DNA from: a virus
IMG/VR virus record: IMGVR_UViG_3300021426_000095
Span: 1-64,000 of that record
DNA length: 64,000 nt
Strand: one strand, 5' to 3'
The translations under genes were made by a program, and so were the position numbers. Below, piece by piece: positions 1 through 30,019 of this stretch. How positions within the stretch are numbered: the stretch's first letter is position 1; each line of letters starts with the position of its first letter. The notes under the pieces were generated by a model. It was not told the origin of the DNA. It made no database searches and worked only from the letters and a program-made list of their open reading frames with translations.

Positions 1-70
1 GTTAGTGAAGCGGTTATCACAATGGTCTGTCTAACCATTATCACGGGTTCGATTCCCGTACGCCTGGCCA
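1..70 (+). tRNA. tRNA-Asp (anticodon GTC), 5' end cut by window edge
   Basis: anticodon arm atggt-ctgtcta-accat (22-38); T-arm acggg-ttcgatt-cccgt (43-59); 3' acceptor acgcctg + g + CCA at 68-70; 5' acceptor strand would lie before position 1. Confidence 0.6.
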
Positions 71-74
71 TATC

Positions 75-159
75 CCGCGGTATTCCGTTAAAGACACGGG
101 GCAGTCTGTAAAACTGTTGCTTTAATGCTGGCTAGGAGCGTTACCTAGACGCGGGACCA
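75..159 (+). tRNA. tRNA-Tyr (GTA), long-variable-arm type, non-canonical T-loop
   Basis: acceptor cccgcgg/acgcggg (one mismatch) + a + CCA 157-159; anticodon arm gcagt-ctgtaaa-actgt; T-arm ctagg-AGCGTTA-cctag lacks the usual TTCRANT loop. Confidence 0.45.
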
Positions 160-160
160 T

Positions 161-235
161 GCGGGAGAAGCTCAACGGTAGAGCACTCGACTCATAATCG
201 ATTGGAAGCAGGTTCAACTCCTGTCTCCCGCACCA
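161..235 (+). tRNA. tRNA-Met or tRNA-Ile2 (anticodon CAT), elongator type
   Basis: acceptor gcgggag/ctcccgc + a + CCA 233-235; D-arm gctc-aacggta-gagc; anticodon loop ctCATaa; T-arm gcagg-ttcaact-cctgt; G1-C72 paired so not initiator-like. Confidence 0.75.
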
Positions 236-258
236 TCTCACTATATAAAGGATTACAT

Positions 259-453
259 ATGGAACAAGTTGATGGATATATAAGTAAAATTTCTTTTGGT
301 GGTAAAACATATGCTCTTAAATGTGAAATTGTAGAAGTATATCCTATAACTTGTCCTAAGTGTGGTGCTTCTTTTGAATTAAAGTATGGTAGTGGTCAAT
401 GTGACCATTGCGGTACTTATTATACAACTCAATTTAAATTAATTGAATCTTAA
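259..453 (+). CDS. small zinc-ribbon protein (CPKCG...CDHCG)
   Basis: ATG 259 preceded by aaagga RBS; two CxxC pairs; sits between tRNAs; TAA stop. Confidence 0.55.
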   Translation: MEQVDGYISKISFGGKTYALKCEIVEVYPITCPKCGASFELKYGSGQCDHCGTYYTTQFKLIES

Positions 454-455
454 GT

Positions 456-537
456 GCGGGTGTGGTGAAATTGGCAAACACGACGGACTCAAAATCCGTT
501 GCCGCAAGGTTTGTGGGTTCGAGTCCCACCATCCGTA
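456..537 (+). tRNA. tRNA-Leu (CAA), type II
   Basis: acceptor gcgggtg/catccgt with two G-U pairs, discriminator a537, no encoded CCA; anticodon arm acgga-ctCAAaa-tccgt; variable arm ccgcaagg; T-arm gtggg-ttcgagt-cccac. Confidence 0.65.
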
Positions 538-595
538 GTTACGAGAATCAGAAACCTCCACGTGGTTCGTAATGGTTAATACTAATATCTGATAT

Positions 596-670
596 TTCCT
601 CTTGGTGTAATTGGTAGCACAAGGGTTTTTGGTGCCCTTAGTTTAGGTTCGAGTCCTGAAGAGGAAGCCA
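596..670 (+). tRNA. tRNA-Gln (TTG)
   Basis: acceptor ttcctct/agaggaa + g + CCA 668-670; D-arm gtgtaattggtagcac; anticodon arm agggt-ttTTGgt-gccct; T-arm ttagg-ttcgagt-cctga. Confidence 0.65.
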
Positions 671-671
671 A

Positions 672-745
672 CGCTATGTAGCTCAAAAGTAGAGCAGGGT
701 GCTGATAACGCCAAGACGGAGGAGCGTTACCTTCCATAGCGACCA
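672..745 (+). tRNA. tRNA-Ile (GAT), non-canonical T-loop
   Basis: acceptor cgctatg/catagcg + a + CCA 743-745; D-arm gctc-aaaagta-gagc; anticodon loop ctGATaa; T-arm ggagg-AGCGTTA-ccttc, same odd loop as the tRNA-Tyr at 75-159. Confidence 0.5.
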
Positions 746-777
746 GAGAAACTACGTTTTGCTAGTGATTGTAGTAA

Positions 778-800
778 ATAGATAAGAGTCATGACCTTAT
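778..800. repeat. imperfect palindrome ATAAGaGTCATGAcCTTAT, copy 1 of 2 (possible operator)
   Basis: perfect palindromic core GTCATGAC; near-identical copy at 1912-1933; both preceded by aaatag. Confidence 0.4.
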
Positions 801-954
801 TAGTCGAACCAATATCGAGCAAAATTAATGACTGCGGTGTGGTGTTTAGTAAGCATACCTTGTATCATGAGCAAGTAGGTGTCCACGGTTGTTTGCCAAG
901 ACGGACCTCCGCGATCAATTAAAAATTAATTAACTCCTACTCAAAAAATTAGCT

Positions 955-983
955 TGACTATCGTTAAACTAATATGTTATAAT
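955..983 (+). promoter_or_regulatory. sigma70-like promoter TTGACT-N17-TGtTATAAT with conserved ATATTTATAAGAAAGAGAGGA leader
   Basis: -35 955-960, extended -10 975-983; leader+RBS runs into ATG 1011. Confidence 0.6.
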
Positions 984-1010
984 ATATTTATAAGAAAGAG
1001 AGGAGCTAAT

Positions 1011-1181
1011 ATGAAAAGGGTTATATATAATATCTATTCTCCTGTTGGAAAACATGTCAAGACTTGTCTTAATCTTCGTCAGGCTAAGAAAGTTCTTAAG
1101 AAGTATAATTCAAATATCCCTTCTTGGCATTATGATGAACTTTATACGATGAGTGCAGAGGTTGTTTATGTCAATTCTTAA
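1011..1181 (+). CDS. hypothetical small protein
   Basis: ATG 1011 after gagaggag RBS and the conserved promoter+leader; the ORF-track start at 954 is a TTG inside the promoter. Confidence 0.5.
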   Translation: MKRVIYNIYSPVGKHVKTCLNLRQAKKVLKKYNSNIPSWHYDELYTMSAEVVYVNS

Positions 1182-1350
1182 AGAATATGTTGTTTGTGAA
1201 AAAAATATAGATAATGTTGTTAGTTATTATATTATTAGAGCAAATGCCAATTGCGGCTATCCTCCTTCAAGGATACTTGCAGATTTTGATACTTTTGAAG
1301 AAGCTCGTGAATATATAAAATATTTAGAAGATTCATTAAAGAATGAATAA
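1168..1350 (+). CDS. hypothetical protein, paralog of 1418..1615 (LKEYVVCxE...F.TxEEA.EYI.YL)
   Basis: ATG 1168; shares motif LKEYVVCE/D with the next gene. Confidence 0.5.
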   Translation: MSILKEYVVCEKNIDNVVSYYIIRANANCGYPPSRILADFDTFEEAREYIKYLEDSLKNE

Positions 1351-1417
1351 AAAATAATTCTTTACAAAAACTCAATTTCATTATATAATATATATAAAAT
1401 TGAGGAAGGAATTAAAA

Positions 1418-1615
1418 ATGCAACTTAAAGAATATGTTGTTTGTGATGAACAAATTAACGGTTTTTACTGTGGCTATTATAGTATTCGTAGTATTCATGA
1501 TAGTCTTTCTTCAAGATTTAGAATAATGGCTAGTTTTAATACATATGAAGAAGCAAATGAATATATAGATTATTTGCGGCATCCAGAAGATTATTTTAAC
1601 CATGATGATGATTAG
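1418..1615 (+). CDS. hypothetical protein, paralog of 1168..1350
   Basis: ATG 1418 after ggaagga RBS; upstream ttacaa ... tataat promoter-like sequence. Confidence 0.5.
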   Translation: MQLKEYVVCDEQINGFYCGYYSIRSIHDSLSSRFRIMASFNTYEEANEYIDYLRHPEDYFNHDDD

Positions 1616-1616
1616 C

Positions 1617-1810
1617 ACCTTGTGTTGCGGGTGGTAGGGATAGTGACCTAGTTAGCCTCATAAGCTAAAAAATATCAGAGCGTAACTGATACCCGCGACA
1701 CAGGGTAGCTGCAGACCTGTTCGATAAAGTTCAAAAAGGCAGCAGAGAGATGAAGGGTGAAACCGGATAATAGATACAATGCCTGAACTGCTAAAGTATC
1801 TTTCTCTCTT
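1617..1810 (+). ncRNA. structured RNA-like element of unknown family
   Basis: 16-bp long-range helix 1617-1632/1691-1706 enclosing about 58 nt; further nested helices gctgc/gcagc and gagaga/tctctc; contains gggtgaaacc; no ORF; directly upstream of tRNA-Asn. Confidence 0.3.
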
Positions 1811-1818
1811 AATTTTAT

Positions 1819-1892
1819 TCCCGGTTCGTTCAACGGCAGGACGCGACACTGTTAATGTCGTTATACTGATTCGAATCCAGTACTGGGAGCCA
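1819..1892 (+). tRNA. tRNA-Asn (GTT)
   Basis: acceptor tcccggt/actggga with one G-U + g + CCA 1890-1892; anticodon arm cgaca-ctGTTaa-tgtcg; T-loop ttcgaat. Confidence 0.7.
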
Positions 1893-1911
1893 CGTTAAAT
1901 ACCCGACCAAA

Positions 1912-1933
1912 ATAGATAAGAAGTCATGAGCTT
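1912..1933. repeat. imperfect palindrome ATAAGaaGTCATGAgCTTAT, copy 2 of 2
   Basis: second copy of the 778-800 motif, again preceded by aaatag. Confidence 0.4.
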
Positions 1934-2000
1934 ATTGAAAAGTGAATCCACACCACCTGTTTGGTCGGTTATTCATTAGTGTGGAGAAAGTGTGGTAATT

Positions 2001-2420
2001 ATGAATAGTAAAACCAAAGGTAATATTTCTGAAGCTAAAGCATTATTTGAATTTCAACGTCGTAATATTCCGGTAGCTCTTCCTTGAGGAGACAATGAAC
2101 GTTACGACATGATTGCTGAATTTGGTGGTAAATTAAATCGTATTCAAGTAAAAACTGCAAATGAAGAGAAAAATGGAAGTATTAGATGTTATTGTAGAAG
2201 TTCAAAAAATCATACTACTAATAAATCTTTAAGTACCTATGAAAATGATGTAGACTATTTTGTATTTTATAACCAAAATAGAGATATAATTGCTTTAGTA
2301 CCGATTAAAGATATTGGTAACTGTCAGACTATTTCTTTAAGGATTGAGCCAACTAAAAATGGACAAACTTCAGGAATAAAATTTTTTAAAGATTATAATT
2401 TTGATAATATTCTGCCGTAG
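2001..2420 (+). CDS. PD-(D/E)xK-type nuclease-like protein (possible freestanding homing endonuclease), one in-frame TGA
   Basis: ATG 2001; in-frame TGA at 2085-2087 (LP*GDNERYDMIAEFGGK...RIQVK looks like an E/D...K nuclease core); embedded in the tRNA array; TAG stop. Confidence 0.5.
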
Positions 2421-2639
2421 CTTAGAGGAAAAGCAGAGGACTTTTAAAAATAGGAGCCTTATAAGGAAACTTATAAGTGAACAGCTCGCTAAGTCGGTGA
2501 AACCTGTAAAATGGCAATACCGAGCAAGGGAAACCGTGTGTAGAGACTTTACACGAGCCACCTAAGTTTTATAATATGGTGAAGATAAAGTCCAGACCAC
2601 AAACAGAAATGGCTATGAAAATAGTAGTGGTATGTAATC

Positions 2640-2675
2640 CTAAGACCGTGGGTTCGAGTCCCACCGGCAGAACCA
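2640..2675 (+). other. tRNA-like 3' element (T-arm + acceptor 3' strand + CCA) with no identifiable 5' partner
   Basis: gtggg-ttcgagt-cccac then cggcaga + a + CCA 2673-2675; no complementary 5' acceptor strand within 250 nt upstream; upstream 2421-2640 has no ORF and contains hairpins. Confidence 0.3.
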
Positions 2676-2677
2676 AT

Positions 2678-2753
2678 ACCGAGTTAGCTTAATTGGCAAA
2701 GCGCGACACTCTTAATGTCGGAGATGTGGGATCGTGGCCCATGCTCGGTACCA
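2678..2753 (+). tRNA. tRNA-Lys (CTT)
   Basis: acceptor accgagt/gctcggt + a + CCA 2751-2753; D-arm gctt-aattggca-aagc; anticodon arm cgaca-ctCTTaa-tgtcg; T-arm gtggg-atcgtgg-cccat (unusual loop). Confidence 0.6.
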
Positions 2754-2763
2754 AACAACAAAC

Positions 2764-2840
2764 ATCCGTGTCGTATAATTGGAAGTATAGCTTGACTCCA
2801 AATCAAGAAGGCGTCTGTTCGATTCGGACTGCGGGTGCCA
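2764..2840 (+). tRNA. tRNA-Trp (CCA), canonical type I
   Basis: acceptor atccgtg/tgcgggt with G-U pairs + g + CCA 2838-2840; anticodon arm cttga-ctCCAaa-tcaag; T-arm gtctg-ttcgatt-cggac. Confidence 0.7.
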
Positions 2841-2848
2841 TATAATAA

Positions 2849-2924
2849 GCCGCATTAGCTCAAGAGGAAGAGCCACAGTCTTCTAAACTGTTTGTTATAG
2901 GTTCAAGTCCTATATGCGGCGCCA
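2849..2924 (+). tRNA. tRNA-Arg (TCT)
   Basis: acceptor gccgcat/atgcggc + g + CCA 2922-2924; D-arm gctc-aagaggaa-gagc; anticodon arm acagt-ctTCTaa-actgt; T-arm atagg-ttcaagt-cctat. Confidence 0.75.
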
Positions 2925-2943
2925 GTTAATTAAGGTAGGTAAA

Positions 2944-3291
2944 ATGTATACTATTGAAAATAATAACATTAGTCTTACTCGTGGAGACACTTTAATTGTA
3001 CAAATAAATATTAAACAAGATGGTAGTGATTATATCCCTGATTCTGGGGATATAATCTATTTTGCTTTAAAACACAATACTATGGATAGTAAAAGAGAAC
3101 GGTATCTTGATAAAGAACCGCTAATTTTAAAAATGATTCCAAATGATACTCTTATTTTAAGATTAGAATCTGTAGAAACAAAGAATCTTGCTTTTGGACG
3201 ATATGTTTATGAAATTGAGCTTACAAAAGAAGATGGTACTGTAGATACTTTCATTTCTGGTATATTTACATTGACTCCAGAGGTAAATTAA
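2944..3291 (+). CDS. hypothetical protein
   Basis: ATG 2944 after aaggtaggt RBS; the ORF-track start 2914 lies inside tRNA-Arg. Confidence 0.5.
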   Translation: MYTIENNNISLTRGDTLIVQINIKQDGSDYIPDSGDIIYFALKHNTMDSKRERYLDKEPLILKMIPNDTLILRLESVETKNLAFGRYVYEIELTKEDGTVDTFISGIFTLTPEVN

Positions 3292-3292
3292 A

Positions 3293-3586
3293 ATGAGTTT
3301 AAATAAAATTAATTTAACTGGTTATCTTAATGACAGTAAATCTTTAAGTGGCTCAATAACAAGTTTACAAAATTTAGAAGGTAGTTTAAGTTCTATTAAT
3401 AAAGAATTGATTAATATACCTTCTGATTCCATTAGAACACAAATTAAAACAGTAACATCATCTATTTCAAAACAAACAATTGTACCAGATGAAGGATATA
3501 ATTATTTATCTAGAGTAATTGTAGAAGGTATTCCATATAAGAAAATTTTTAATGAAGCTGGCGGTATAACTATTAAGATAGGATAA
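3293..3586 (+). CDS. hypothetical Ser/Thr-rich protein
   Basis: tightly packed ORF (2 nt after upstream stop). Confidence 0.45.
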   Translation: MSLNKINLTGYLNDSKSLSGSITSLQNLEGSLSSINKELINIPSDSIRTQIKTVTSSISKQTIVPDEGYNYLSRVIVEGIPYKKIFNEAGGITIKIG

Positions 3587-3589
3587 TTT

Positions 3590-4090
3590 ATGAAAGTAAA
3601 TAAAGTATATTATGGAAATCAATTACTTGTTGATTTAACTGATGCTACAGTTTCAGAAAAACAATTATTAAAAGATGTTATTGCATATGGCGCTGATGGA
3701 GAAAAAGTAATTGGTACAAATAACACGATGGCACTTTCACCAATTGAATATGATTATAACATAGGCTATATAGAATATGATTCTTTATGGAAATACCAAA
3801 GTCCAATAGATACTTATACTGATATTTATAAAGTTCAAAGCGGGCATAGATATTTTATTAGTTTAGGAAAAAATATTGGTACTCGTTTTCGTGCAATGTT
3901 TTGTCCTTTAGATGTTAGAAACAGGACAGAAGACTTATCGGGTCAATTTATTATTTATGATAATGCGCCAACCCCATATCAAAATGTTTCTCAAGAATCT
4001 CCTTGGGATGGTTATTTACTTATTTCAAAAGATCATATCGGTAAAACAGGACTTATTAGTTACGTATATGATACTACTAATTGGGTATAA
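3590..4090 (+). CDS. hypothetical protein
   Basis: ORF with RBS gataggataattt; packed operon. Confidence 0.5.
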   Translation: MKVNKVYYGNQLLVDLTDATVSEKQLLKDVIAYGADGEKVIGTNNTMALSPIEYDYNIGYIEYDSLWKYQSPIDTYTDIYKVQSGHRYFISLGKNIGTRFRAMFCPLDVRNRTEDLSGQFIIYDNAPTPYQNVSQESPWDGYLLISKDHIGKTGLISYVYDTTNWV

Positions 4091-4288
4091 ATGGAGAATT
4101 TAATAATGTTTAATTTTTTAAAACGCAAACAAACTGATCCTTATGAATATAAAATGCTTTGTAAAAATTGTGATATTTTTTTTAAACGAAAAAATCCTAA
4201 AGAAAAGAGATGCCCTGCGTGTAATCAGTTTAGTAGAGTAGAAACTTATAGTCTTATTAATAAAGAAACCGGTCAGGAGATTAGATAA
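4091..4288 (+). CDS. small zinc-ribbon protein (CKNC...CPAC)
   Basis: two CxxC pairs; overlapping stop/start with neighbours. Confidence 0.5.
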   Translation: MENLIMFNFLKRKQTDPYEYKMLCKNCDIFFKRKNPKEKRCPACNQFSRVETYSLINKETGQEIR

Positions 4289-4521
4289 TGAGAATTATTA
4301 AAGAAGGTGTAATACCTAATATTGAATATATCTTTACGTGTAGTTATTGTAATTGTGAATTTGCAGTAACCGAAATAGAATTAATTAATAATAATCCTTT
4401 TTCAGATAAAAATTCTTATTCATGCCCAACTTGTCATAAAAATGTATATAATCCTGAAAAACATATTGTAGAAGAAGAAACATCAGAACCTTCTACTGAA
4501 GATGAAACGGTAAATCCATAA
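4288..4521 (+). CDS. small zinc-ribbon protein (CSYCNC...CPTC)
   Basis: CxxC pairs; ATGA overlap with upstream gene. Confidence 0.5.
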   Translation: MRIIKEGVIPNIEYIFTCSYCNCEFAVTEIELINNNPFSDKNSYSCPTCHKNVYNPEKHIVEEETSEPSTEDETVNP

Positions 4522-4709
4522 TGAAACGAGAAAATATAAAATTTGATTGTCATAAATGTAATCATTCATTTATAGCAACACCACAAGAATATAAAACTAT
4601 ATTTTGACATGGAGATATTATTAAAGAAGGATATTGTCCAATTTGTGGTGCAGTTAATCAGCTTAATACCACAAGAGGATTTTGAGGTTCTAACGGAGGA
4701 AAATTTTAA
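4521..4709 (+). CDS. small zinc-ribbon protein with 2 in-frame TGA codons
   Basis: MKRENIKFDCHKCNH...F*HGD...CPICG...GF*GSNGGKF; taATG overlap at 4519-4523; TAA stop 4707-4709. Confidence 0.45.
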
Positions 4710-4845
4710 TATATTGCAACAATAAGTAAAGGTATTACTAATTATTATATAGTTTAGTAATATAAACAAATGCCTGTTCGACTCAGGCTCGGTCCATCTA
4801 CGGGCTGATCGTTTAAGTGCGGCAAGACTTGTTTTAGAATATTTG

Positions 4846-4875
4846 TTGACAGTTGTTCAATTTTTATGCTATAAT
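4846..4875 (+). promoter_or_regulatory. promoter TTGACA-N18-TGcTATAAT driving a short (~90 nt) leader-like transcript
   Basis: -35 4846-4851, -10 4870-4875; transcript begins ataaggtaagggaga and contains ttgttcgaatcaa and the hairpin ccatc-tga-gatgg. Confidence 0.55.
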
Positions 4876-4972
4876 ATATACATAAGGTAAGGGAGATGAT
4901 TGTTCGAATCAATTGCTGTCCATCTGAGATGGCTAGTTTAAAAGGAAAAATAACCGAACCTTAAATTTTTAA

Positions 4973-5002
4973 TTGACAATTAAATAAAAAATATGATATA
5001 AT
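4973..5002 (+). promoter_or_regulatory. promoter TTGACA-N18-TGaTATAAT driving non-coding RNA
   Basis: -35 4973-4978, -10 4997-5002; followed by aaaagggagag and about 400 nt of non-coding sequence up to the tRNA-like element at 5393. Confidence 0.55.
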
Positions 5003-5392
5003 ATAAATATAGAAAAGGGAGAGTTAAACATTCTCGCCAATATCAACTGGGAGTATGACTGCAGAAACTGCCCAGAGAGACGGCCTAGACGCAGGTGTGG
5101 GAAGTGGTGCCACATAGCGAAAAACGAGAGTGGGGAGTAGCTACCCCAGGAATTGGTCGGGATACAACGAAAAGGCTCGTACCGAGTAAACCTAAGTCGA
5201 AGGTAAGAATGTTTAACTATTCGTTTTCTAAAACGAAGTACGAAAGAGATGGATTCTCCATTCTCATATAAGGTTGATAGTCCTTTCAAACTAAACTATC
5301 AAAGTCGGCACGAAACGTTAACATCACATTAGCCGACTATAAAAAAGAAGAATGGTGATAGTTTCATAGCACGGGTGAAAGTAAACTGGAGA

Positions 5393-5465
5393 TAGCTGGT
5401 GGTGTAATTGGTCAGCATCGGCCCGCAAGGGCTAGGGTATTGGTTCGAATCCAATCTGGCTATCC
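5393..5465 (+). ncRNA. tRNA-like RNA with the anticodon arm replaced by a GCAA-capped helix (tRNA-Gln-derived?)
   Basis: acceptor tagctgg/ctggcta; U8-G9; D-arm gtgtaattggtcagc almost identical to the tRNA-Gln D-arm at 603-618; T-arm attgg-ttcgaat-ccaat; the middle arm is ggccc-GCAA-gggct, a 4-nt tetraloop, so no anticodon; no CCA. Confidence 0.4.
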
Positions 5466-6000
5466 GTGAAGGGTGATGGAACCAGGAAGATAAAGATCAT
5501 TGGTGTATAGTGTTCGCTTGCGGCAGTCCTCTTCAACGAAAGTCGTGTCGTCATTCTACTGCGGAAGGTAGTTTGTCCAATATGTCCTGATGACGTTAAA
5601 AGCTGAGCGTATAGTGAAAGACTGACGGGTTGAGTAGCGGCGTAAGGGTTTTCTTATGCTTTCTTTTCCAACAATGCTTTCTAGATAAGCAGCCACATAA
5701 TAAGTGGTATAAAGAAAGCGCCAAATAATTGGGGTATATGAGTCGCGAGCGAGAAGCAGAACCCCACAGGATGGTAACAGGTTCGATTGAATGCTGAAGC
5801 TCATGCGAACTCGGTAAGCGAGCTAGGGTGTAAATGGTAGACTCTCCGAGTATATAGTCAGAACAGACAATAAAATCGTTGGGTTCGTGGACATAGGCAA
5901 AGAGCTTCCTACCAACTGAATATCAAGGAAGGGGTTTTTCCAAGCGGCAGGTTGCGAGTCCTGAAAAAGTGCGTAAAGGCGCCACCCGCATTTATTTTAT

Positions 6001-6080
6001 GCACATATGGCGGAGTCTGGTCAATCGCAACGGCCTGCAAAGCCGTACAATCGTTAGTTCAAATCTAACTATGTGCTCCA
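6001..6080 (+). tRNA. tRNA-Cys (GCA)
   Basis: acceptor gcacata/tatgtgc + t + CCA 6078-6080; anticodon arm acggc-ctGCAaa-gccgt; T-arm gttag-ttcaaat-ctaac. Confidence 0.75.
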
Positions 6081-6084
6081 TTAT

Positions 6085-6178
6085 GGAGAGTTGGCCGAGT
6101 AGGTCGATGGCGCTCGCCTGCTAAGCGAGTATACAGTGTTAAGCTGTATCCAGGGTTCGAATCCCTGACTCTCCGCCA
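6085..6178 (+). tRNA. tRNA-Ser (GCT), type II
   Basis: acceptor ggagagt/actctcc + g + CCA 6176-6178; anticodon arm ctcgc-ctGCTaa-gcgag; long variable arm tatacagtgttaagctgtatc; T-arm cagggttcgaatccctg. Confidence 0.8.
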
Positions 6179-6316
6179 GAAAATTTTTATCAAAATATAA
6201 TAAAATATTTAAGCTAATTTTTATATATAATAACAAAGTCCAAGATGTTTTCACATTCGCAAATTATGACTTAAAACTGTCCCCAAATGTGAGCCTTATA
6301 ACAATGATGTTATTAT

Positions 6317-6351
6317 GGGGATAGCTATATTTTGGCTATCCCCATTTTTTG
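6317..6351 (+). terminator. rho-independent terminator closing the tRNA/ncRNA block
   Basis: ggggatagc-tatattttg-gctatcccc followed by attttttg. Confidence 0.6.
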
Positions 6352-6375
6352 TATATAAGGCGGAAAGGAGGAATC

Positions 6376-7428
6376 GTGTATAACATTGGATTTTATGGTG
6401 GTAAATTTCTTCCATTCCACAAGGGCCACTTACATTGTATTTTAAGAGCAGCATCACAATGTAATAAGTTATATGTTGTTATTATGTACAATGGAAGAGA
6501 AGAGCTAGAAGCTCTTTCCCAAGAGACTAAGTTTGGTAATAAATACCTTACTCCACACATTAGAGAATTGGCTATTCGTAAAGAATTAAAACCTTTTCCT
6601 AATATCGAAGTTATCATGTATGACACTAAACCTGCAGATGATAAAGCTGAGCAAGAAGGCAAAGATCTATGGTATTATGAATGTCAAGACATGATAGCAT
6701 TAATGGGTAAATTTGATGCCGCATATTCAAGTGAACCAAAGTATGATATTTTATTTAAACAATATTATCCTTGGGCAGATTCAATTATTTTAGATGAATG
6801 CCGCAATGATATTAATATTTCTGGCACTCAATTAAGAAATATGAATATTAAGCAGGCATATCAATATTTACCTAGAAGTTATCAGCAACTAATTAATCGA
6901 AAAGTATTATTTGTTGGAACCTGTTCTTGCGGGAAGACTACAACAATACAAAAACTTGCTAAATATTATAACACAAGTTACTCAGAAGAGCAAGGCCGCA
7001 AAGTAAGTGAAAATTTTAATATTCATAGCCCAGGCTCAGAATGGTATAATCAATTTGTATGTCAACAATATATGGCTAATGCTAAAGCTGTTGAAGATGC
7101 TAATTTAGTTGCTCTCTTGGATACTGATGCTTTGATTACTAGATTTTATAATGATTTATATGAAGATTCCCCTCTTCCAGCCGCTGAAGCTATTGCAGCA
7201 GACAATAAATATGATTTAATATTATTCTTTGAACCAACTGTTCCCTTTGTACATGATGGTATGAGAACTGAAAGAGAAAATGCTCAACGATGGGAATTAA
7301 GTCATAAATTAAAAAATACTTTCTTTCAATATTATGATAATATTAAAGTTCTTTCAGGAACCTATGAAGAGAATTATTTAAATGCTATTAAATATATTGA
7401 TGAAATGTTGGAGGGTTCAAATGAATAA
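6376..7428 (+). CDS. nadR: NadR-like bifunctional NMN adenylyltransferase / ribosylnicotinamide kinase
   Basis: GTG 6376 after aaggagga RBS; N-terminal GGKFLPFHKGH (HxGH nucleotidyltransferase motif); C-terminal P-loop GTCSCGKTT; no TGA codons. Confidence 0.7.
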   Translation: MYNIGFYGGKFLPFHKGHLHCILRAASQCNKLYVVIMYNGREELEALSQETKFGNKYLTPHIRELAIRKELKPFPNIEVIMYDTKPADDKAEQEGKDLWYYECQDMIALMGKFDAAYSSEPKYDILFKQYYPWADSIILDECRNDINISGTQLRNMNIKQAYQYLPRSYQQLINRKVLFVGTCSCGKTTTIQKLAKYYNTSYSEEQGRKVSENFNIHSPGSEWYNQFVCQQYMANAKAVEDANLVALLDTDALITRFYNDLYEDSPLPAAEAIAADNKYDLILFFEPTVPFVHDGMRTERENAQRWELSHKLKNTFFQYYDNIKVLSGTYEENYLNAIKYIDEMLEGSNE

Positions 7429-8110
7429 TATTTTAAAACAATATGATTGGAATTGGTTTGAATTAGGATTAATTGGAATTGTTTCTATTATTGGGTTATA
7501 TTTCTTTGCCGGAACAATTACTCCACAAGAATTTATTTTACCAACAGTAGATTTAGTTGCAGCTTTTTGTGGTATCTGTTCTGTGGTTTTATGTGCTAAA
7601 GGTAAAAAAGCAGGATTTATTTTTGGCCTAATTAATGTAATTGGTTATTCTATTATTGCTTTTAATAACTTATATTATGGAGAAGTTTTATTAAACGTAT
7701 TATTCTATATTCCTATTAATATAATTTCTTATATTACTTGGAGTAAAAATCAATATGAAGATAAAAATGAAGTTATACCTAAAGCTCTTAATTGGAAACA
7801 AATACTTATCGGTATAATTATTATTAGCGCCGCAACTATAGGTTTACATTATATCTTACTTTCTCTTGGAGGAGCAATGACTCTTCTAGATGGAACTACG
7901 ACAATTCTTTCAATCGCAGCTTCTTTATTAATGTGGCGTAGATATGCAGAACAATGGGCTTGTTGGATTATTGTTGATATAATCACTGTAATTATGTGGA
8001 TTATTGCTGGTGATCCAATTATGATTGCTATGTGGGGAGCATATCTTGTGAATGCTTTCTATGGTTATTATTTATGGCTTAAGAAAAGTAATCATTTTCT
8101 TTGGAAGTAA
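7421..8110 (+). CDS. pnuC: PnuC-family nicotinamide riboside transporter
   Basis: about 230 aa, 7-8 hydrophobic segments with the Trp-rich pattern typical of PnuC; ATG 7421 overlaps the nadR stop. Confidence 0.65.
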   Translation: MNNILKQYDWNWFELGLIGIVSIIGLYFFAGTITPQEFILPTVDLVAAFCGICSVVLCAKGKKAGFIFGLINVIGYSIIAFNNLYYGEVLLNVLFYIPINIISYITWSKNQYEDKNEVIPKALNWKQILIGIIIISAATIGLHYILLSLGGAMTLLDGTTTILSIAASLLMWRRYAEQWACWIIVDIITVIMWIIAGDPIMIAMWGAYLVNAFYGYYLWLKKSNHFLWK

Positions 8111-8117: not shown

Positions 8118-8147
8118 TTGACGAATGCTCCTTTTATATGATATAAT
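8118..8147 (+). promoter_or_regulatory. promoter TTGACG-N18-TGaTATAAT + conserved ATATTTATAAGAAAAGGAAAAGG leader
   Basis: -35 8118-8123, -10 8142-8147. Confidence 0.6.
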
Positions 8148-8205: not shown

Positions 8206-9204
8206 ATGTGAAGTAATACAACTGCGGGTAGTTGTGGTTGTGATAATTTTTCCCCTCCTCGTAATATTTATAGTACCTCTACAACATATACACCTAACAT
8301 TACAATTGATAATGGGTCTATGAAGATAGGTAATATGACTATTGATGAAGATTCTATTACATTTAATACTTCGTCTAAAGTTATGATTGATGGAGAAGAA
8401 ATAAGTGGAGACGATATTGATTTTATCCATAAATTAAAAAATTTAGGGAATTCCGCTTGTGATTGCACTTCGGCAATTCAACATATGATAGATCAACTCA
8501 CATCAAGTCCCAAATATAATAATAAAATTAAATATAATGAAAAGGAGAGTCAAGGAATGGATCTAATGAAAAATTTTAATTTTGGTCCGTGCGGTGATCG
8601 TGCTAAGATTTCACATCTTGGTATTGCGGTACAGAATAGTAATGGTGAATGGGTATCTTATGATAAAGAAAACAACGAAATTGTTAATGTTGATTTAATT
8701 AATTTTGGTTGTGATAATTTTGTTTATATGATGCCTGTTGCAATTAAAGATGTAACTGAAGGCGATGCAATTATTCATAATCGTCATGTAATGTTTGTTA
8801 CAAAGGCAAGAGGGAAGGCTATTTCTGTTATTGATGTAACAGATGGTGAGATTAAGAAAATTCTTCCTACTAAGTCTATATTTGGTTTTGATTTTGTAAC
8901 TAAGATTGTGAGTCTAATAGATTTTACAGCATCGGCCGCGGATGAAGACAATCCTTTTGGAAACATGCTCCCCTTCCTTCTATTGAATAATGATAATAAT
9001 AGGAGCAATGATGTTCTCCCTTTAGCCTTTATGCTAATGAACAAGGATGGTCAGGATGGTGGGCTATTCTCTTCTTCTATCTCCTCTACTCAGATGATGC
9101 TTATAGCTATGATGATGACAAATGGCAAGAATGGTTGCGACACACAGAATCTTTTACCACTAATGTTCCTGATGAACGAGAATACAAAGACGGCGACTTC
9201 GTAA
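8206..9204 (+). CDS. hypothetical protein (333 aa) whose second codon is TGA
   Basis: ATG 8206 after aaaggag RBS (spacing 5), immediately followed by in-frame TGA, then continuous with the ORF-track frame 8320..9204; the C-terminus is Met/Leu-rich. Confidence 0.5.
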
Positions 9205-9423: not shown

Positions 9424-10371
9424 ATGTTCGCAATTTTTGGTATTATCGTTCTAATCGCAGGTATTATTTGTGCGATCTTTTTTGGTAAAACAGAAACATA
9501 TGAAGCATGGGGTGAAGAAAGAACAAAACAAATTACACCACCTAAGCTATGGAGTTTAATTCCAATTATTCTTGGTGTCGTTCTTATTTTCAGTTCTTGT
9601 ATTTATACTCAATCTGTTGGAGAAGTTGTTGTCCTTCGTAATTGGGGTGGTCAGCTAGTTGGGCATGATAGTGAAGCTGGTTTTGGTCTAAAAGCTCCTT
9701 GGCAAGAAATTACTCGCTATGATATTCGTAATAACATCCTCTCCTTTATGGGTGAAACAGAAGAAGAGCAATTTGAAGGTGGTTCCGCAAATGGCTCTGG
9801 TATTATTGTGAATGATCGTGGTGGTGCAAGAGCCGTTGTAGATGTTCAGGTTAACTATTCACTTGACCCAGAAGCGGCAGAAGATCTTTATATAAATTAT
9901 GGAACTCAAGAAAACTTTGTAAAAGCTATTTGTGCGGTTGATATTCGCGCAGTTCCACGTCAAGTTGCAGGTCAATTTGATACAATTACTATTCTAACCG
10001 CACGTGAAGAATTTGTTAAAGCTATTTGGGAAGCTCTTGAAACAAAGTGGAAGCCTTATGGATTAGTTATTGAACAAGTTAATGTTCAACACGTAGAATA
10101 TCCCGATAATATTAATGAAAGTTATACTAAAGCACAGCAAGCTGAAATTGATAAGCAAACAGCTGAAAATAAAAAGTCTGTTGCTGAGGTTGAAGCACAA
10201 ACTAAAGTAGTACAAGCACAAGGTGAAGCTGACGCAAATAAAATTCTTAATGATTCACTTACACAAGAAATCATTCAGCAACACTATATTGATGCTCTTA
10301 AAGAAATTGGTGCGCAAGGAAATCTTGTAGTTGTTCCAGAAAATTCAACACCAATGGTTAATACTAAATAA
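9424..10371 (+). CDS. SPFH/band-7 (stomatin/HflC-like) membrane protein
   Basis: N-terminal transmembrane segment, band-7 core (VVVLRNWGGQLVG...GLKAPWQEI), C-terminal coiled coil (QQAEIDKQTAENKK...). Confidence 0.65.
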   Translation: MFAIFGIIVLIAGIICAIFFGKTETYEAWGEERTKQITPPKLWSLIPIILGVVLIFSSCIYTQSVGEVVVLRNWGGQLVGHDSEAGFGLKAPWQEITRYDIRNNILSFMGETEEEQFEGGSANGSGIIVNDRGGARAVVDVQVNYSLDPEAAEDLYINYGTQENFVKAICAVDIRAVPRQVAGQFDTITILTAREEFVKAIWEALETKWKPYGLVIEQVNVQHVEYPDNINESYTKAQQAEIDKQTAENKKSVAEVEAQTKVVQAQGEADANKILNDSLTQEIIQQHYIDALKEIGAQGNLVVVPENSTPMVNTK

Positions 10372-19062: not shown

Positions 19063-19082
19063 ATGTAAGGAGTTAAATTAAC

Positions 19083-20636
19083 ATGGCTGAAAGAGAAACA
19101 GAATATTTATTTAAGCCTTATCAAATGCATATTTATATACCACATAAATGAGGAGCATACCCTCAAAAGGTTAAAATTAAAGATCGTATTAGTACTTATG
19201 AAGTTTGTCGAGTTATGGTTGATGGAAAATTAGTCCATGAACGGCATAGCGATTATTCTATAGAGGCTACTGAAAAAAATAATAAAAAAGATGGTAAACA
19301 CACTGGAAGATGTAATCTTTGTGGTAGTATACAAACAGAACCGCACAGTTGAGAAAATAAACCTCAATATATTAAAAGAGACGATATTAATCATAAATAT
19401 CTTTGTAGTAAGTTTGACACAAAAGGTCATCGTTGTGAAGGATATTATTTAGAAAAGCATAGTAAACAATATTCATTTCTTTTCGATCCTAAGGGTAAAA
19501 ATTATCGTAGTCCAGTATGACATATGGTTTTTTGTGAAATTTGTGGTGGAAGTTGACAAGAATCTCATCATTGAAAAGAAGATGGCCAAGGAGAGACTAA
19601 ATGAGAAATTTCTAATAAAGATAAACATCATAAAACCTGTATTTATTGTGGACAAGAAGAAGAAGGAAATCATAGTAATATAAAATATTTTCAGAAGTTC
19701 ATTAATAATGGTGATTTTGATACAGATAAGCATACGGCAGTATGTGGAGTTTGTCATGGACCATGACTTGAAGATCATGATTGACTGAGAAAAAGTGATA
19801 ATAGTCTTAGGTGAGAAAGTGAAAAAACTGATAGTCAATATAAAACACATCACAGGGTACAGTGTAGAAAATGTAAAGGTTTTCTATATGAAAGACATAA
19901 TTATGATCTTATTCATGTAAAATCTGGATATGACTTTGAAACTAAGTGTATATGTGGTAAAACGGATAGTATAAATAAATGAAGTATTGCTTATAAAAAT
20001 GTTCCTTGCGGGAATAAAAAAACTATGAATATTCAATTAAAATATACTGGTAAAGGTTATTTATATTTAAAAATTTTACCAGATGATCAAGGAAATTATC
20101 CTAATTATCCAATAGTTTATACAGGTGATTCAAAAAGACCTAGTCCTGAAAATAAAAATGAAAAACTTCCAATTCATGTTAAAAATGGTTGGTATAAACG
20201 TGGTAACGGTGAAGACTGAAATTTAAGTAGTTATAAAAAATATACATATAAAAAACATTTTGTAATAGAAGGTGTTAAGGAAAGTGAAAATCGAGGAATT
20301 CTTTATGAGGGAGAACGTTATAAAGGATATCGTCTTATATCTGATTATGCCGGTTATGAATCATCTGGATCAGGATCAAAAGTAACAAATATTGTGTTTT
20401 CATTAAAAGATATTAATGCTAATAAACATCGTTATTCTACTTCTAAAACAAAAGTAACTAATGAAAAAGAAGGAGGAGCAGATACTATATATTATTTTTA
20501 TAGAGGTAGATTTAATGATTTTTGGATCTATAGTAATAAGTTATATGAAGAACCATATATACTTTTTCCTTGTGTGCGTGGATGGCATAAAAGTAAAAAA
20601 AGTTTAATTAGTGGAAGTTATATAGTAACAGGGTAG
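19083..20636 (+). CDS. Cys/His-rich multi-zinc-finger protein (517 aa) with 11 in-frame TGA codons
   Basis: one continuous frame (track ORFs 20025.. and 20394.. are in frame with ATG 19083); repeated C-x2-C ... H motifs; TGA concentrated in the first 330 codons, TGG used in the last third. Confidence 0.5.
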
Positions 20637-23380: not shown

Positions 23381-23409
23381 AAGAAAAACCCCGCCATTAC
23401 TGGGCGGGG
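23381..23409 (-). terminator. rho-independent terminator for 23441..23806
   Basis: minus strand: ccccgcc-cagtaat-ggcgggg + tttttctttt. Confidence 0.6.
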
Positions 23410-23440
23410 TTCTCGCCATTACTGGGCGATTAGGTGAGGA

Positions 23441-23806
23441 TTACACCAGCTTGTAGCCGACATAACGCCCCTTCACCTTTTCCACTTTCTCCACTTTACC
23501 AGCGGAGATAAGCACAGCCATGACTTTGGTGCATTTCTGCGAAGTCATAATCCCGTTTACGTGTTCCATAATCCACGAGGTCAGAACAGGCTCACCCTCG
23601 GGCATGACTTTAAGCACTTCGCCAGCCAAACGAATGTTCTCTTTGGCTGCCTTAGACGGCTCATTCGACTTTTCGCGGGGCTTAGTGATGCTTGCCAGCA
23701 TCTTGGCTGCGACCTCACGGGCGTCCTCACGGGCGAGGGTTTCATAATCGCCATTCACAACAGCAGTCAGGACTTCAGCGCGGGTGATGGTGGTGTTCTT
23801 AGCCAT
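23441..23806 (-). CDS. small winged-helix DNA-binding protein (paralog family)
   Basis: C-terminal LTSWIMEHVNGIMTSQKCTKVMAVLISAGKVEKVEKVKGRYVGYKLV is nearly identical to the C-terminus of 26375..26779; RBS aaaggag. Confidence 0.55.
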   Translation of the reverse strand: MAKNTTITRAEVLTAVVNGDYETLAREDAREVAAKMLASITKPREKSNEPSKAAKENIRLAGEVLKVMPEGEPVLTSWIMEHVNGIMTSQKCTKVMAVLISAGKVEKVEKVKGRYVGYKLV

Positions 23807-24075
23807 AATCAGGCTCCTTTCGGTTGCGGGTGAGATTCCGTTTTTTCTCTCCCTCTGACAGTTAATATATTACCAAATCTTAGTGCTGGGGTCAAGTAGA
23901 ATTTTGTCTTCATAAAGTCTCCATAATTCAGGATTTAAAACAAGCGTCTGACCTGCGGTTTTGGTGATCAATTTTTCCCATGCCGGCACAAAGGCAAATT
24001 CGCTTGATTCCGCCGGAATCAAGCGCTCAAACGTTTTAAAGAACAAAAAACCCGCCTGTTTTGGCGGGTTTTTGT

Positions 24076-24774: not shown

Positions 24775-24804
24775 TTTGTTTCCTTTCTCTCTCTGACAAT
24801 TAGT

Positions 24805-24833: not shown

Positions 24834-24915
24834 GTATTAATTTCAGGATTTTGTCTCTTCATATTTTCTTCACAATTGTTCTTGATCTTTCTCTTGGGGT
24901 GTGCAATGGTAAATT

Positions 24916-30017: not shown

Positions 30018-30019
30018 AA

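What the first reader, a model, noticed from the sequence alone, without database searches (positions are those of the whole stretch)
6376..8110. Phage-encoded NadR-like NMN adenylyltransferase/nicotinamide-riboside kinase + PnuC transporter: NAD+ salvage module
A complete nicotinamide-riboside uptake-to-NAD route with its own strong promoter and neither gene using TGA. NAD+ reconstitution is a known phage counter to NAD-depleting defences such as Thoeris, DSR and SIR2/SEFIR systems. The PnuC-NadR route would be an alternative to the described Nampt/Nmnat-type pathways.
Basis: partly seen in the sequence, partly recalled or inferred. Interest (0 to 1): 0.65.

Follow-up and report, generated by a model that had tools for sequence, protein, structure and literature searches.

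The report
Riboswitch-led phage NAD+ salvage operon
A gut phage carries the already-described two-gene kit for rebuilding NAD+ from nicotinamide riboside (a NadR-like enzyme plus a PnuC transporter, named NARP3 in 2026); the new part is a conserved pseudoknotted RNA leader in front of it that looks like an uncatalogued NAD-pathway riboswitch.

Summary
The two genes are real and sit at the stated coordinates. The first is an HTH-less NadR-like NMN adenylyltransferase/ribosylnicotinamide kinase (6376-7428). The second is PnuC (7421-8110), overlapping it by 8 nt. The NadR-like protein's best solved-structure match is Bas30_86, the enzyme of the validated phage system NARP3 (Sci Adv, Aug 2026). 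About 400-470 GenBank phage records already carry these genes.

The "own strong promoter" is not supported. The only strong sigma-70-like site lies downstream of pnuC.

What I found upstream is a 57-nt element (6236-6292) followed by a terminator hairpin (6315-6351). The element is nearly invariant in relatives whose NadR is only 54-87% identical. It also occurs, in tandem, upstream of nadR-pnuC in Coriobacteriia, and upstream of NMNAT-pnuC or an ECF S-component in rumen phage-like contigs.

Two interleaved helices covary: 94.7% of cells are paired against 59.6% in shuffles, and 9 of 11 pairs show compensatory changes. Expression platforms vary. No Rfam family matches, and the element differs from NAD+-I and NAD+-II.

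Best reading: a NARP3-type operon under a candidate new NAD-pathway OFF riboswitch. The ligand and the switching logic are inferred, not shown.

The parts
6226..6231 (+). Lone -10-like TATAAT, 4 nt upstream of the leader. There is no acceptable -35. It is a possible but unproven start point of the operon transcript.
   Evidence: Read from the sequence. Not reported by the promoter scan. Not conserved in relatives.
6236..6292 (+). Conserved pseudoknotted leader (candidate riboswitch aptamer). P1 5' is 6236-6240 (AAGUC); CAAG 6241-6244; P2 5' 6251-6256 (UCACAU); UCGC 6257-6260; P1 3' 6268-6272 (GACUU); AAACUGU 6274-6280; CAA 6284-6286; P2 3' 6287-6292 (AUGUGA).
   Evidence: Near-invariant block in relatives. 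Anchor-based parse. Covariation counts. Covariance model R1 scores 72.9 bits, E 3.5e-15, and finds a single copy in the window. No Rfam match.
6315..6351 (+). Terminator-like hairpin (13 bp, 6 G-C pairs) plus a U-run; the inferred expression platform. Its 5' arm GGGGAUAG is complementary to the aptamer segment CUGUCCCC (6277-6284), giving a possible antiterminator.
   Evidence: Terminator scan. Folding of the leader, z = -3.2. The hairpin still forms when the aptamer is sequestered. Relatives have non-homologous terminators, or the SD, at the same place.
6365..6371 (+). Shine-Dalgarno sequence AAGGAGG of nadR, 4 nt before GTG 6376.
   Evidence: Sequence.
6376..7428 (+). nadR-like gene (350 aa): an NMN adenylyltransferase domain plus a ribosylnicotinamide kinase domain, with no HTH. 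Homologue of the NARP3 enzyme Bas30_86.
7421..8110 (+). pnuC gene (229 aa): nicotinamide riboside transporter family. Its ATG overlaps the end of nadR by 8 nt (ATGAATAA), and a GGAGGG RBS lies at 7410-7415.
8118..8147 (+). Strong sigma-70-like promoter (TTGACG-18-TGnTATAAT) of the next transcription unit. It marks the 3' boundary of the module and is not part of it.
   Evidence: In relative L023 the leader plus terminator is fused directly to the equivalent promoter, with nadR-pnuC absent.

Best explanation
The window comes from a large, AT-rich, TGA-recoded phage of the gut microbiome, with replication genes of the SPbeta-like Bacillota-phage type. It carries a NARP3-type operon.

PnuC imports nicotinamide riboside. 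The HTH-less NadR-like enzyme phosphorylates it to NMN in its RNK domain and adenylates NMN to NAD+ in its NMNAT domain. This rebuilds the NAD+ pool during infection, including when NAD+-depleting defences fire. These steps are inferred from homology to the characterised Bas30_86/87 system.

Unlike the described NARP3 operons, this one is preceded by a 57-nt H-type pseudoknot RNA (P1 5 bp, P2 6 bp, with invariant CAAG, UCGC, AAACUGU and CAA) followed by an intrinsic terminator. I infer that this is a riboswitch for NAD+ or a nicotinamide-containing relative such as NMN, acting as an OFF switch.

In that model, ligand binding locks the pseudoknot, the downstream strand is left free, and it forms the terminator. 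In relatives the same event occludes or sequesters the SD. When the ligand falls, the aptamer's 3' segment pairs with the platform and nadR-pnuC is expressed. The operon would thus be induced when NAD+ collapses.

Status of each step:
- Shown here: gene identities, the conserved pairing of the two genes, and the conserved, covarying RNA with its gene associations.
- Inferred: enzyme and transport activities, the ligand, the switching polarity and the link to defence.
For: Proteins:
- Family matches.
- Best solved-structure match is the NARP3 enzyme Bas30_86, E 1.6e-37. PnuC matches 4QTN at E 2.2e-30.
- Catalytic motifs are intact, and 7 of 17 residues named for Bas30_86 are identical plus 2 conservative.
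- nadR-pnuC adjacency holds in all 14 relatives fetched through the protein.
- NARP3 function is published.

Phage origin: DNA polymerase, NrdD, RecJ, a virion protein, portal and terminase-like genes, and a 99% identical IMG/VR contig.

RNA:
- The block is almost invariant while NadR falls to 54% identity.
- Both helices covary: 94.7% of cells paired against 59.6% shuffled (0 of 500 shuffles reach it), slid controls 23-43%, 9 of 11 pairs with changes on both sides, and G-U pairs tolerated.
- Out-of-sample test: 3 of 4 newly fetched nadR loci carry it, with new compensatory P2 variants.
- It also sits upstream of nadR-pnuC in Coriobacteriia, in tandem, with the second copy abutting the SD.
- It sits upstream of NMNAT-pnuC, or of an ECF S-component (in one locus, L033, followed by an isochorismatase-family gene with a weak nicotinamidase match), in phage-like rumen contigs.
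- Platforms are non-homologous: different terminators, SD-adjacent arrangements, or a released strand that pairs with the SD/start region.
Against: There is no biochemical or expression evidence for this phage.

Proteins: several residues reported as important in Bas30_86 differ here (S37M, E80A, P84A, G89L, D115K, K163Q, D164L, E230N). Three of four NR-coordinating positions of N. mucosa PnuC are changed to other polar residues (Q to N, Q to S, N to D).

RNA: the ligand is unknown. Minimum-free-energy folding forms the terminator with or without the aptamer, so the antiterminator is only a hand-found complementarity. No promoter could be placed, so the hairpin could also end the upstream tRNA-array transcript. 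The helix register rests on sequence anchors plus a rule for one optional G. A more distant phage clade runs nadR-pnuC from a plain promoter with no leader. The absence from the literature was checked only in an open-access library.
Confidence: 0.68

Rival explanations
1. The operon is a general auxiliary metabolic module. It raises NAD+ supply for phage replication in an NR-rich gut environment rather than acting as a dedicated counter-defence. The leader is ordinary feedback control inherited from a bacterial operon.
For: The same operon with the same leader exists in Coriobacteriia chromosomes with housekeeping neighbours. Phage NAD+ synthesis genes are common in gut jumbo phages, where they have been discussed as metabolic. 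No defence or anti-defence genes were found beside the module.
Against: The homologous Bas30_86/87 operon measurably defeats Sir2-HerA and DSR1. The two readings are not exclusive: an NAD+-repressed switch would serve both.
Confidence: 0.3
2. The leader is a riboswitch, but its ligand is a precursor or breakdown product (nicotinamide, nicotinate, NR or ADP-ribose) rather than NAD+/NMN, and/or some members are ON switches.
For: Some members control an ECF S-component, and in one locus (L033) an isochorismatase-family gene with a weak nicotinamidase match lies downstream, which would point to niacin/nicotinamide handling. In the rumen type, the aptamer's 3' strand is itself one arm of the downstream hairpin, which could be read as a terminator that the bound aptamer prevents. 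The type-2 copies in Coriobacteriia differ in their joining regions and may have a different specificity.
Against: SD-abutting arrangements occur in L003, L018 and the type-2 copies, and a degenerate copy uses the SD itself as P2 3'; all favour ligand-dependent repression. The rumen hairpins often lack a U-tail, and the released strand pairs with the SD/start region. Uptake and salvage genes are classically repressed by the end product.
Confidence: 0.25
3. The conserved leader is a structured RNA that works without a small-molecule ligand, for example as a protein-binding attenuator or an mRNA stability/processing element next to the tRNA array.
For: No ligand has been demonstrated. The NadR-like proteins here lack an HTH, so autoregulation at the RNA level is conceivable. 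The element directly follows a tRNA array in phages.
Against: It also precedes genes in loci without nadR (ECF S-component) and in bacteria without nearby tRNAs. A compact invariant core, variable helices, interchangeable platforms and tandem copies form the usual riboswitch signature.
Confidence: 0.15
4. The proteins have drifted to another specificity: a Pnu-family transporter for thiamine, riboflavin or deoxynucleosides, and a nucleotidyltransferase/kinase for another substrate.
For: Only partial conservation of the residues named for Bas30_86 and for the PnuC NR site. TIGR01526 and NF005988 scores are below their curated equivalog cut-offs.
Against: TIGR01528 (the NR transporter PnuC equivalog) is well above its cut-off. 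All top PDB hits are NadR or PnuC. The WxxW motif and the catalytic motifs are intact. The genes are strictly linked to each other and to an RNA found only beside NAD salvage genes.
Confidence: 0.05

Closest known systems
NARP3 (Bas30_86/Bas30_87 of Escherichia phage TrudiRoth; Yan et al., Sci Adv 2026, PMC13464706; PDB 9X6H/9X6F)
   Same: A two-gene phage operon in the order nadR-like then pnuC-like. The enzyme lacks the HTH and has NMNAT and RNK domains. Bas30_86 is the best solved-structure match (E 1.6e-37, 34% identity). The predicted chemistry is the same: NR import, then NR to NMN to NAD+.
   Different: A different phage lineage and habitat: a gut, AT-rich, TGA-recoded, Bacillota-type phage rather than T5-like Enterobacteriaceae phages. 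Only about 34% identity, with about half of the residues named for Bas30_86 changed. It is preceded by a conserved pseudoknot leader plus terminator, which has no blastn match in 50,697 GenBank phage records and is not mentioned in the parts of the NARP3 paper that I read.
Bacterial nadR-pnuC operons of Coriobacteriia (Eggerthellaceae, Coriobacteriaceae, Slackia)
   Same: The closest cellular homologues (about 50% NadR identity, about 55% PnuC). Same gene order, same HTH-less NadR and the same leader motif.
   Different: High-GC genomes. The leader is present as two tandem copies (a type-1 copy with a terminator, and a diverged type-2 copy abutting the SD). The NadR proteins are 20-60 aa longer.
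Canonical NadR (Salmonella/E. coli trifunctional; H. influenzae 1LW7) with PnuC
   Same: The NMNAT and RNK domains and their motifs, and the functional coupling with PnuC for NR salvage.
   Different: No N-terminal HTH repressor domain (NF005988 aligns only from model position 65). Regulation appears to be handed to an RNA element instead.
NAD+-II riboswitch (pnuC motif, Streptococcus; Panchapakesan et al. 2021; Peng et al. 2023)
   Same: Sits in the 5' UTR of pnuC-type genes. Has H-type topology (P1, then a long-range pseudoknot whose 3' strand lies at or near the SD) and an A-rich strand directly after P1 3'. Likely OFF logic.
   Different: No P1a hairpin. None of this motif's invariants (CCAAG, UCGC, AAACUGU) occur in the published S. 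parasanguinis NAD+-II sequence, and the reverse also holds. The pseudoknot helix here is variable and covaries rather than being fixed to the SD. Different taxa. No Rfam hit even at E <= 10.
NAD+-I riboswitch (nadA motif, Acidobacteria)
   Same: Controls NAD+ biosynthesis genes, and a tandem arrangement occurs.
   Different: nadA consists of two bulged stem-loop domains, not a pseudoknot. There is no sequence resemblance and no Rfam hit.
NARP1 (Adps+Namat) and NARP2 (Nampt+Nmnat; KVP40 NadV/NatV)
   Same: Phage-encoded NAD+ reconstitution.
   Different: Different substrates (ADPR plus nicotinamide; nicotinamide plus PRPP) and unrelated first enzymes. No transporter, and no leader of this kind is known for them.

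Membership tests
NARP3 (phage NadR-like + PnuC-like NAD+ reconstitution operon) | Adjacent, co-oriented nadR-like and pnuC-like genes in a phage genome. | tested here: met
   Genes at 6376-7428 and 7421-8110 with an 8-nt overlap. Phage hallmark genes are present in the window. The adjacency is kept in all relatives.
NARP3 (phage NadR-like + PnuC-like NAD+ reconstitution operon) | The enzyme is a truncated NadR: NMNAT and RNK domains with no HTH. | tested here: met
   TIGR01526 aligns over residues 12-339. NF005988 aligns to model positions 65-409 only. PF13521 covers 185-341 and PF01467 the N-terminus.
NARP3 (phage NadR-like + PnuC-like NAD+ reconstitution operon) | Sequence homology to Bas30_86. 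| tested here: met
   Best PDB match is 9X6F/9X6H, E 1.6e-37, 104 of 309 aligned residues identical.
NARP3 (phage NadR-like + PnuC-like NAD+ reconstitution operon) | Conservation of the residues shown or modelled as essential in Bas30_86: K10, F11, S37, E80, P84, G89, F110, S112, D115, V139, I141, K163, D164, R167, K168, E230, D275. | tested here: inconclusive
   Seven are identical (K10, F11, S112, I141, R167, K168, D275), two are conservative (F110Y, V139I) and eight differ. The canonical HxGH, ISxTxxR and Walker A motifs are intact.
NARP3 (phage NadR-like + PnuC-like NAD+ reconstitution operon) | A PnuC-type NR transporter. | tested here: met
   PF04973 at 2.8e-42; TIGR01528 at 131 bits against a cut-off of 42.45; 4QTN at E 2.2e-30; WxxW motif kept. 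The NR-site positions are N, S, D, Y here against Q, Q, N, Y in 4QTN.
NARP3 (phage NadR-like + PnuC-like NAD+ reconstitution operon) | NR-dependent restoration of NAD+ and rescue of phage from NAD+-depleting defence. | not testable with these tools
   Requires enzyme, transport and infection assays.
Canonical trifunctional NadR | An N-terminal HTH DNA-binding domain that represses NAD genes. | tested here: not met
   The protein starts directly with the GxFxPxHxGH motif (residues 8-18), and NF005988 model positions 1-64 are unmatched.
Riboswitch (generic) | A conserved structured aptamer supported by covariation. | tested here: met
   19 distinct cores: 94.7% of cells paired against 59.6% shuffled (0 of 500), slid controls 23-43%, 9 of 11 pairs with changes on both sides. 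The covariance model finds unseen members at 40-72 bits.
Riboswitch (generic) | Located in 5' UTRs, on the sense strand, of genes from one metabolic pathway, with interchangeable expression platforms. | tested here: met
   Found upstream of nadR-pnuC, NMNAT-pnuC and an ECF S-component. Platforms include non-homologous terminators, SD-adjacent forms and tandem copies.
Riboswitch (generic) | Direct, selective binding of a metabolite that changes gene expression. | not testable with these tools
   Needs in-line probing or ITC, plus reporter or termination assays.
NAD+-II riboswitch (pnuC motif) | P1, a P1a hairpin and an SD-containing pseudoknot, with the conserved core nucleotides of the pnuC motif. 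| tested here: not met
   No Rfam family was hit at E <= 10 on the phage or the bacterial leader. The published NAD+-II RNA shares none of the invariant blocks. There is no P1a. Only the overall topology is similar.
NAD+-I riboswitch (nadA motif) | Two tandem bulged-stem domains; restricted to Acidobacteria. | tested here: not met
   No Rfam hit. The structure here is a single H-type pseudoknot, and the taxa are Coriobacteriia and phages.

The most novel reading that the evidence does not exclude
The 57-nt leader is the first member seen of a third, undescribed riboswitch class for NAD+ or its nicotinamide nucleotide precursors. It is shared by Coriobacteriia and by gut and rumen phages. In the phage it acts as a built-in sensor that switches on the NARP3-type NAD+ reconstitution operon when the host's NAD+ pool collapses, for instance when an abortive-infection defence fires. 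Counter-defence would then be induced by the defence's own metabolic effect.
Probability: 0.35. Interest if true: 0.85.

Novelty: new variant of a known kind. Interest (0 to 1): 0.6.

Why it matters
The protein module alone only extends a system published in 2026 (NARP3) to a new phage lineage and habitat.

The leader is the part that would matter. NAD+ is the major coenzyme with the fewest known riboswitches: two rare classes, in Acidobacteria and in Streptococcus. A third class with clean covariation gives a short, directly testable RNA.

It would also be a clear case of a phage placing an anti-defence or metabolic operon under metabolite-sensing RNA control. That makes one question experimentally accessible: do phages sense NAD+ depletion?

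The swapping of cargo genes behind the same leader in related phage contigs (NMNAT-PnuC against an ECF S-component) also gives a handle for assigning function to uncharacterised vitamin B3 transporters.

Tried and rejected
- **Rfam:** gathering-threshold scan of the whole window, and permissive scans (E <= 10) of the phage leader and a bacterial leader. Only chance-level hits (L20 leader, PyrR, Moco and similar) driven by the terminator hairpins.
- **Megablast** of 20 kb of the window against GenBank phages: no match.
- **blastn** of the aptamer against GenBank phages: no match.
- **Strict and relaxed pattern scans of IMG/VR:** only two true contigs. L037-L040 were chance matches, as were L019 and L036 from the metagenome scan; all lack P1/P2 and score at most 14 bits.
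- **Type-2 pattern** in IMG/VR: nothing.
- **MAFFT alignments of full-length aptamers** (A2, A4) put P1 3' or P2 3' out of register because of linker indels. I therefore counted pairs on columns extracted by sequence anchors (A3, A5) and built the covariance model with P1 only.
- **Thermodynamic folding** did not reveal an antiterminator in the window; the terminator is in the MFE either way.
- **An ON-switch reading** of the rumen-type hairpin was considered. I judged it less likely once the released strand was seen to pair with the SD/start region.
- **A sigma-70 promoter** for the operon was looked for and not found.
- **Literature searches** for a third NAD+ riboswitch class, or a riboswitch linked to nadR/pnuC outside Streptococcus, found nothing.
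- **Neighbouring ORFs** show no NAD-related or defence-related families.
Full report
**1. Observation**

The stated interval holds two co-directional ORFs.

The first most plausibly starts at GTG 6376. An AAGGAGG sits 4 nt upstream, and relatives have ATG at the homologous codon. It ends at TAA 7428 (350 aa).

The second starts at ATG 7421, with a GGAGGG 5 nt upstream, and overlaps the first by 8 nt. It ends at TAA 8110 (229 aa). The longer ORFs listed mechanically (from 6349 and 7382) are not supported by the gene starts in relatives.

Pfam and NCBIfam place protein 1 in the NadR NMN-adenylyltransferase/ribosylnicotinamide-kinase family:
- TIGR01526, 5.4e-49.
- NF005988, 8.1e-44, aligned to model positions 65-409 only, so without the HTH.
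- PF13521, 1.1e-21.

Protein 2 is placed in PnuC: PF04973 at 2.8e-42, and TIGR01528 at 131 bits against a cut-off of 42.

HxGH (FHKGH), ISxTxxR (ISGTQLR) and Walker A (GTCSCGKT) can be read directly from the sequence.

Neither gene contains an in-frame TGA, and both stop at TAA. Several long frames elsewhere in the window are only open if TGA is read as sense, at Trp-like positions:
- a terminase-like frame at 35421-37400 with 13 TGA;
- a portal frame at 37840-39447 (phrog_2739, 6e-81);
- a frame at 19077-20636 with 11 TGA.

A tRNA with anticodon UCA lies at 49729-49825.

The "own strong promoter" is not confirmed. No sigma-70-like site is found upstream of 6376. The only near-consensus promoter (8118-8147) lies after pnuC.

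**2. What the genes are, and whether that is new**

Among solved structures, the best match of the NadR-like protein is 9X6F/9X6H (E 1.6e-37, 34% identity). This is ahead of bacterial NadRs 8X7F, 6GYE and 1LW7. These two entries are Bas30_86, the enzyme of the phage system NARP3. PnuC matches N. mucosa PnuC 4QTN (E 2.2e-30, 37% identity).

The NARP3 paper (Sci Adv, 12 Aug 2026) reports four things:
- Bas30_87 imports nicotinamide riboside.
- Bas30_86 converts it to NAD+.
- Both genes are needed.
- Together they restore NAD+ and phage plating against Sir2-HerA and DSR1.

The same operon had been pointed out as a probable third pathway in 2024. pnuC and nadR were also catalogued in gut jumbo phages.

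In GenBank phages, tblastn finds NadR-like genes in 471 records and PnuC in 401, frequently adjacent.

Residue-level comparison is mixed. Of 17 residues named for Bas30_86, seven are identical and two conservative. Of the four NR-contacting positions quoted for 4QTN, one is identical and three are other polar residues; the WxxW motif is kept. Activity is inferred, not shown.

**3. Context**

The window is phage DNA. The evidence is:
- a DnaE-type polymerase (39% identical to SPbeta-like Bacillus phage YorL), NrdD, RecJ, a virion structural protein, portal and terminase-like genes;
- a tRNA array at 1-6178 immediately upstream of the module;
- no close relative among deposited phages;
- a 99% identical IMG/VR fragment.

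Relatives on 76-146 kb gut-metagenome contigs encode NadR at 54-87% identity, always followed by PnuC. They carry Gram-positive-type lysins: GH25+CW_7 and Amidase_2+CW_binding_2.

The nearest cellular homologues (about 50%) are HTH-less nadR-pnuC operons of Coriobacteriia.

**4. The unexpected part: a conserved leader**

I aligned the regions upstream of nadR in the relatives. The flanks do not align, but one block does: window 6236-6290, AAGTCCAAGATGTTTTCACATTCGCAAATTATGACTTAAAACTGTCCCCAAA. This block is almost invariant, and better conserved than the coding sequence.

What follows it differs from locus to locus:
- Window, L004, L005/L009 and L008: unrelated terminator hairpins with U-runs.
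- L002: a small hairpin and then the SD.
- L003: the SD itself.

The same element lies upstream of the Coriobacteriia operons, as two tandem copies. The first is followed by a G+C-rich terminator and the second abuts the SD.

A pattern scan of one genome per GTDB species found it in six genomes, all Coriobacteriia.

A metagenome scan found 16 true contigs. Most are AT-rich and rumen-derived, and carry PHROG families. In these the element precedes one of two gene sets:
- an NMNAT-only gene plus pnuC; or
- a ~165-aa ECF transporter S-component (PF07155). In some loci this is followed by a small protein of unknown function, and in one locus (L033) by an isochorismatase-family protein with a weak nicotinamidase match.

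Related contigs carry either cargo at the same position behind the same leader.

**5. Structure**

I parsed all instances by sequence anchors (C-CAAG, UCGC, AAACUGU, CAA). This gives two interleaved helices:
- P1, 5 bp: AAGUC/GACUU, ACGUC/GACGU, GGGAC/GUCCC, GGGUC/GACCC, ACGAC/GUCGU, and others.
- P2, 6 bp: UCACAU/AUGUGA, GACAAU/AUUGUC, AACGAU/AUCGUU, GACGUU/AACGUC, GUAUUU/AAAUAC, CUGCCA/UGGCAG, and others.

Together they form an H-type pseudoknot.

On 19 distinct cores, 94.7% of cells form standard pairs against 59.6% in column shuffles (0 of 500 reach it), and 23-43% when partners are slid. Nine of 11 pairs change on both sides, and G-U pairs occur, as expected for RNA.

A covariance model built from 14 phage-type sequences scores the window copy at 72.9 bits (E 3.5e-15). 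It finds no second copy in the window. It recovers the bacterial copies it was not trained on at 40-52 bits.

As an out-of-sample test I fetched four further nadR loci. Three carry the motif, with new compensatory P2 variants (AAUGAU/AUCAUU and UUCGU/ACGAA). The fourth is a more distant phage clade (45% NadR identity) and has a plain TTGACT-17-TATAAT promoter instead.

**6. Relation to known RNAs**

Rfam 15 gives no match at gathering thresholds. Permissive scans of the phage and bacterial leaders give only chance-level hits.

The published NAD+-II (pnuC motif) RNA has a similar topology: P1, a long-range pseudoknot near the SD, and an A-rich strand after P1 3'. But it has an extra P1a hairpin, and none of the invariant blocks are shared. 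NAD+-I is a pair of bulged stem-loops.

Text searches of the open-access library found no third NAD+ class and no riboswitch linked to nadR-pnuC outside Streptococcus.

The aptamer has no blastn match in 50,697 GenBank phage records, including the T5-like NARP3 phages.

**7. Mechanism (inferred)**

Three things favour ligand-dependent repression: the SD abuts P2 3' in L003, L018 and the type-2 copies, and a degenerate copy in L023 uses the SD (AAGGAG) itself as P2 3'.

In the rumen type, the aptamer's 3' strand can instead pair with a downstream mimic of P2 5'. When the aptamer is treated as sequestered, that released strand pairs with the SD/start region.

In the window, the terminator's 5' arm (GGGGAUAG) is complementary to the aptamer segment CUGUCCCC. 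A GGGG run recurs in the otherwise unrelated platforms of L004, L005, L008 and L023. This suggests an antiterminator in the unliganded state. MFE folding does not show it.

The gene set under control (NR uptake and conversion, NMNAT, a possible niacin-type S-component) points to NAD+ or a nicotinamide nucleotide as the ligand. For the phage, the operon would then be derepressed when NAD+ falls.

**8. Verdict**

- The finding is real and correctly interpreted, but the module is a member of the already-published NARP3 kind.
- The promoter claim is wrong.
- The added value is the leader: a well-supported structured RNA (about 0.9 confidence), probably a riboswitch (about 0.7), with NAD+/NMN as the most likely ligand (about 0.5). 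As far as these resources show, it is not described.
- I rate the whole as a new variant of a known kind, with interest 0.6.

Noticed in passing
window 19077-20636, 33293-34417, 35421-37400, 37840-39447, 43912-44802; tRNA at 49729-49825: Many late or structural genes are open only if TGA is read as sense, at Trp-like positions (a terminase-like frame with 13 in-frame TGA; a portal frame hitting phrog_2739). A long-variable-arm tRNA with anticodon UCA, which ARAGORN calls SeC, is encoded nearby. nadR-pnuC and the replication genes avoid in-frame TGA.
   Followed up: partly
L023:3737-3860 and L023:4042-4857: A close relative keeps the aptamer and a GGGGAUAG-type terminator but lacks nadR-pnuC. 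The terminator is fused to the TTGACA/TATAAT promoter of the homologue of window ORF 8320-9204. This looks like an orphan riboswitch left by deletion, so the module is accessory.
   Followed up: partly
L023:1515-1574: A degenerate second copy of the leader (35 bits). CAAG and AAACUGU are altered, and its P2 3' strand is the SD (AAGGAG) of a ~60-aa ORF of unknown function.
   Followed up: no
L020, L024, L034, L035 versus L026, L030, L022, L025, L033: Related AT-rich phage-like rumen contigs carry different cargo behind the same leader at the same locus: either NMNAT-only plus PnuC, or an ECF S-component. The S-component is in some loci followed by a 120-aa protein (phrog_23161) and, in L033 only, by an isochorismatase-family protein with a weak nicotinamidase match.
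   Followed up: partly
L010-L018, L044 (Coriobacteriia), e.g. L012:2751-2817 and 2931-2990: The bacterial operons have two tandem copies. The second (type 2) has diverged joining regions (CAAGGUUCG, UCGCGUAU, AAACUGUUCCAA) and was not found by the type-1 covariance model. It may have a different affinity or specificity.
   Followed up: partly
window 4566-6000: About 1.4 kb without credible ORFs inside the tRNA array. It contains two near-consensus promoters and G+C-richer, well-folding sequence (z = -2.7). The only Rfam hit is an odd tRNA-like gene at 5393-5465 with an irregular anticodon loop. It may encode unannotated RNA(s).
   Followed up: partly
window 23400-32000, minus strand: An island of higher G+C (0.42-0.47 against about 0.32) on the opposite strand, with duplicated gene pairs: paralogues at 24076-24774 and 28358-29068, and proteins at 23441-23806 and 26375-26878 that share a C-terminal motif. 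This suggests an inserted or duplicated element.
   Followed up: no
window 8320-9204 and 9424-10371: The two genes after the module are an unknown 294-aa protein and an SPFH/Band_7 membrane protein. They are conserved downstream of nadR-pnuC in relatives (L005, L023), and a Band_7 gene also flanks the leaderless clade (L043).
   Followed up: no
L002:1-2826: A relative encodes a TROVE (Ro60-like) protein and an RlaP-type nucleotidyltransferase beside its tRNA array, which suggests an RNA repair or quality-control module. Window ORF 10820-11644 hits a PHROG nucleotidyltransferase family.
   Followed up: no
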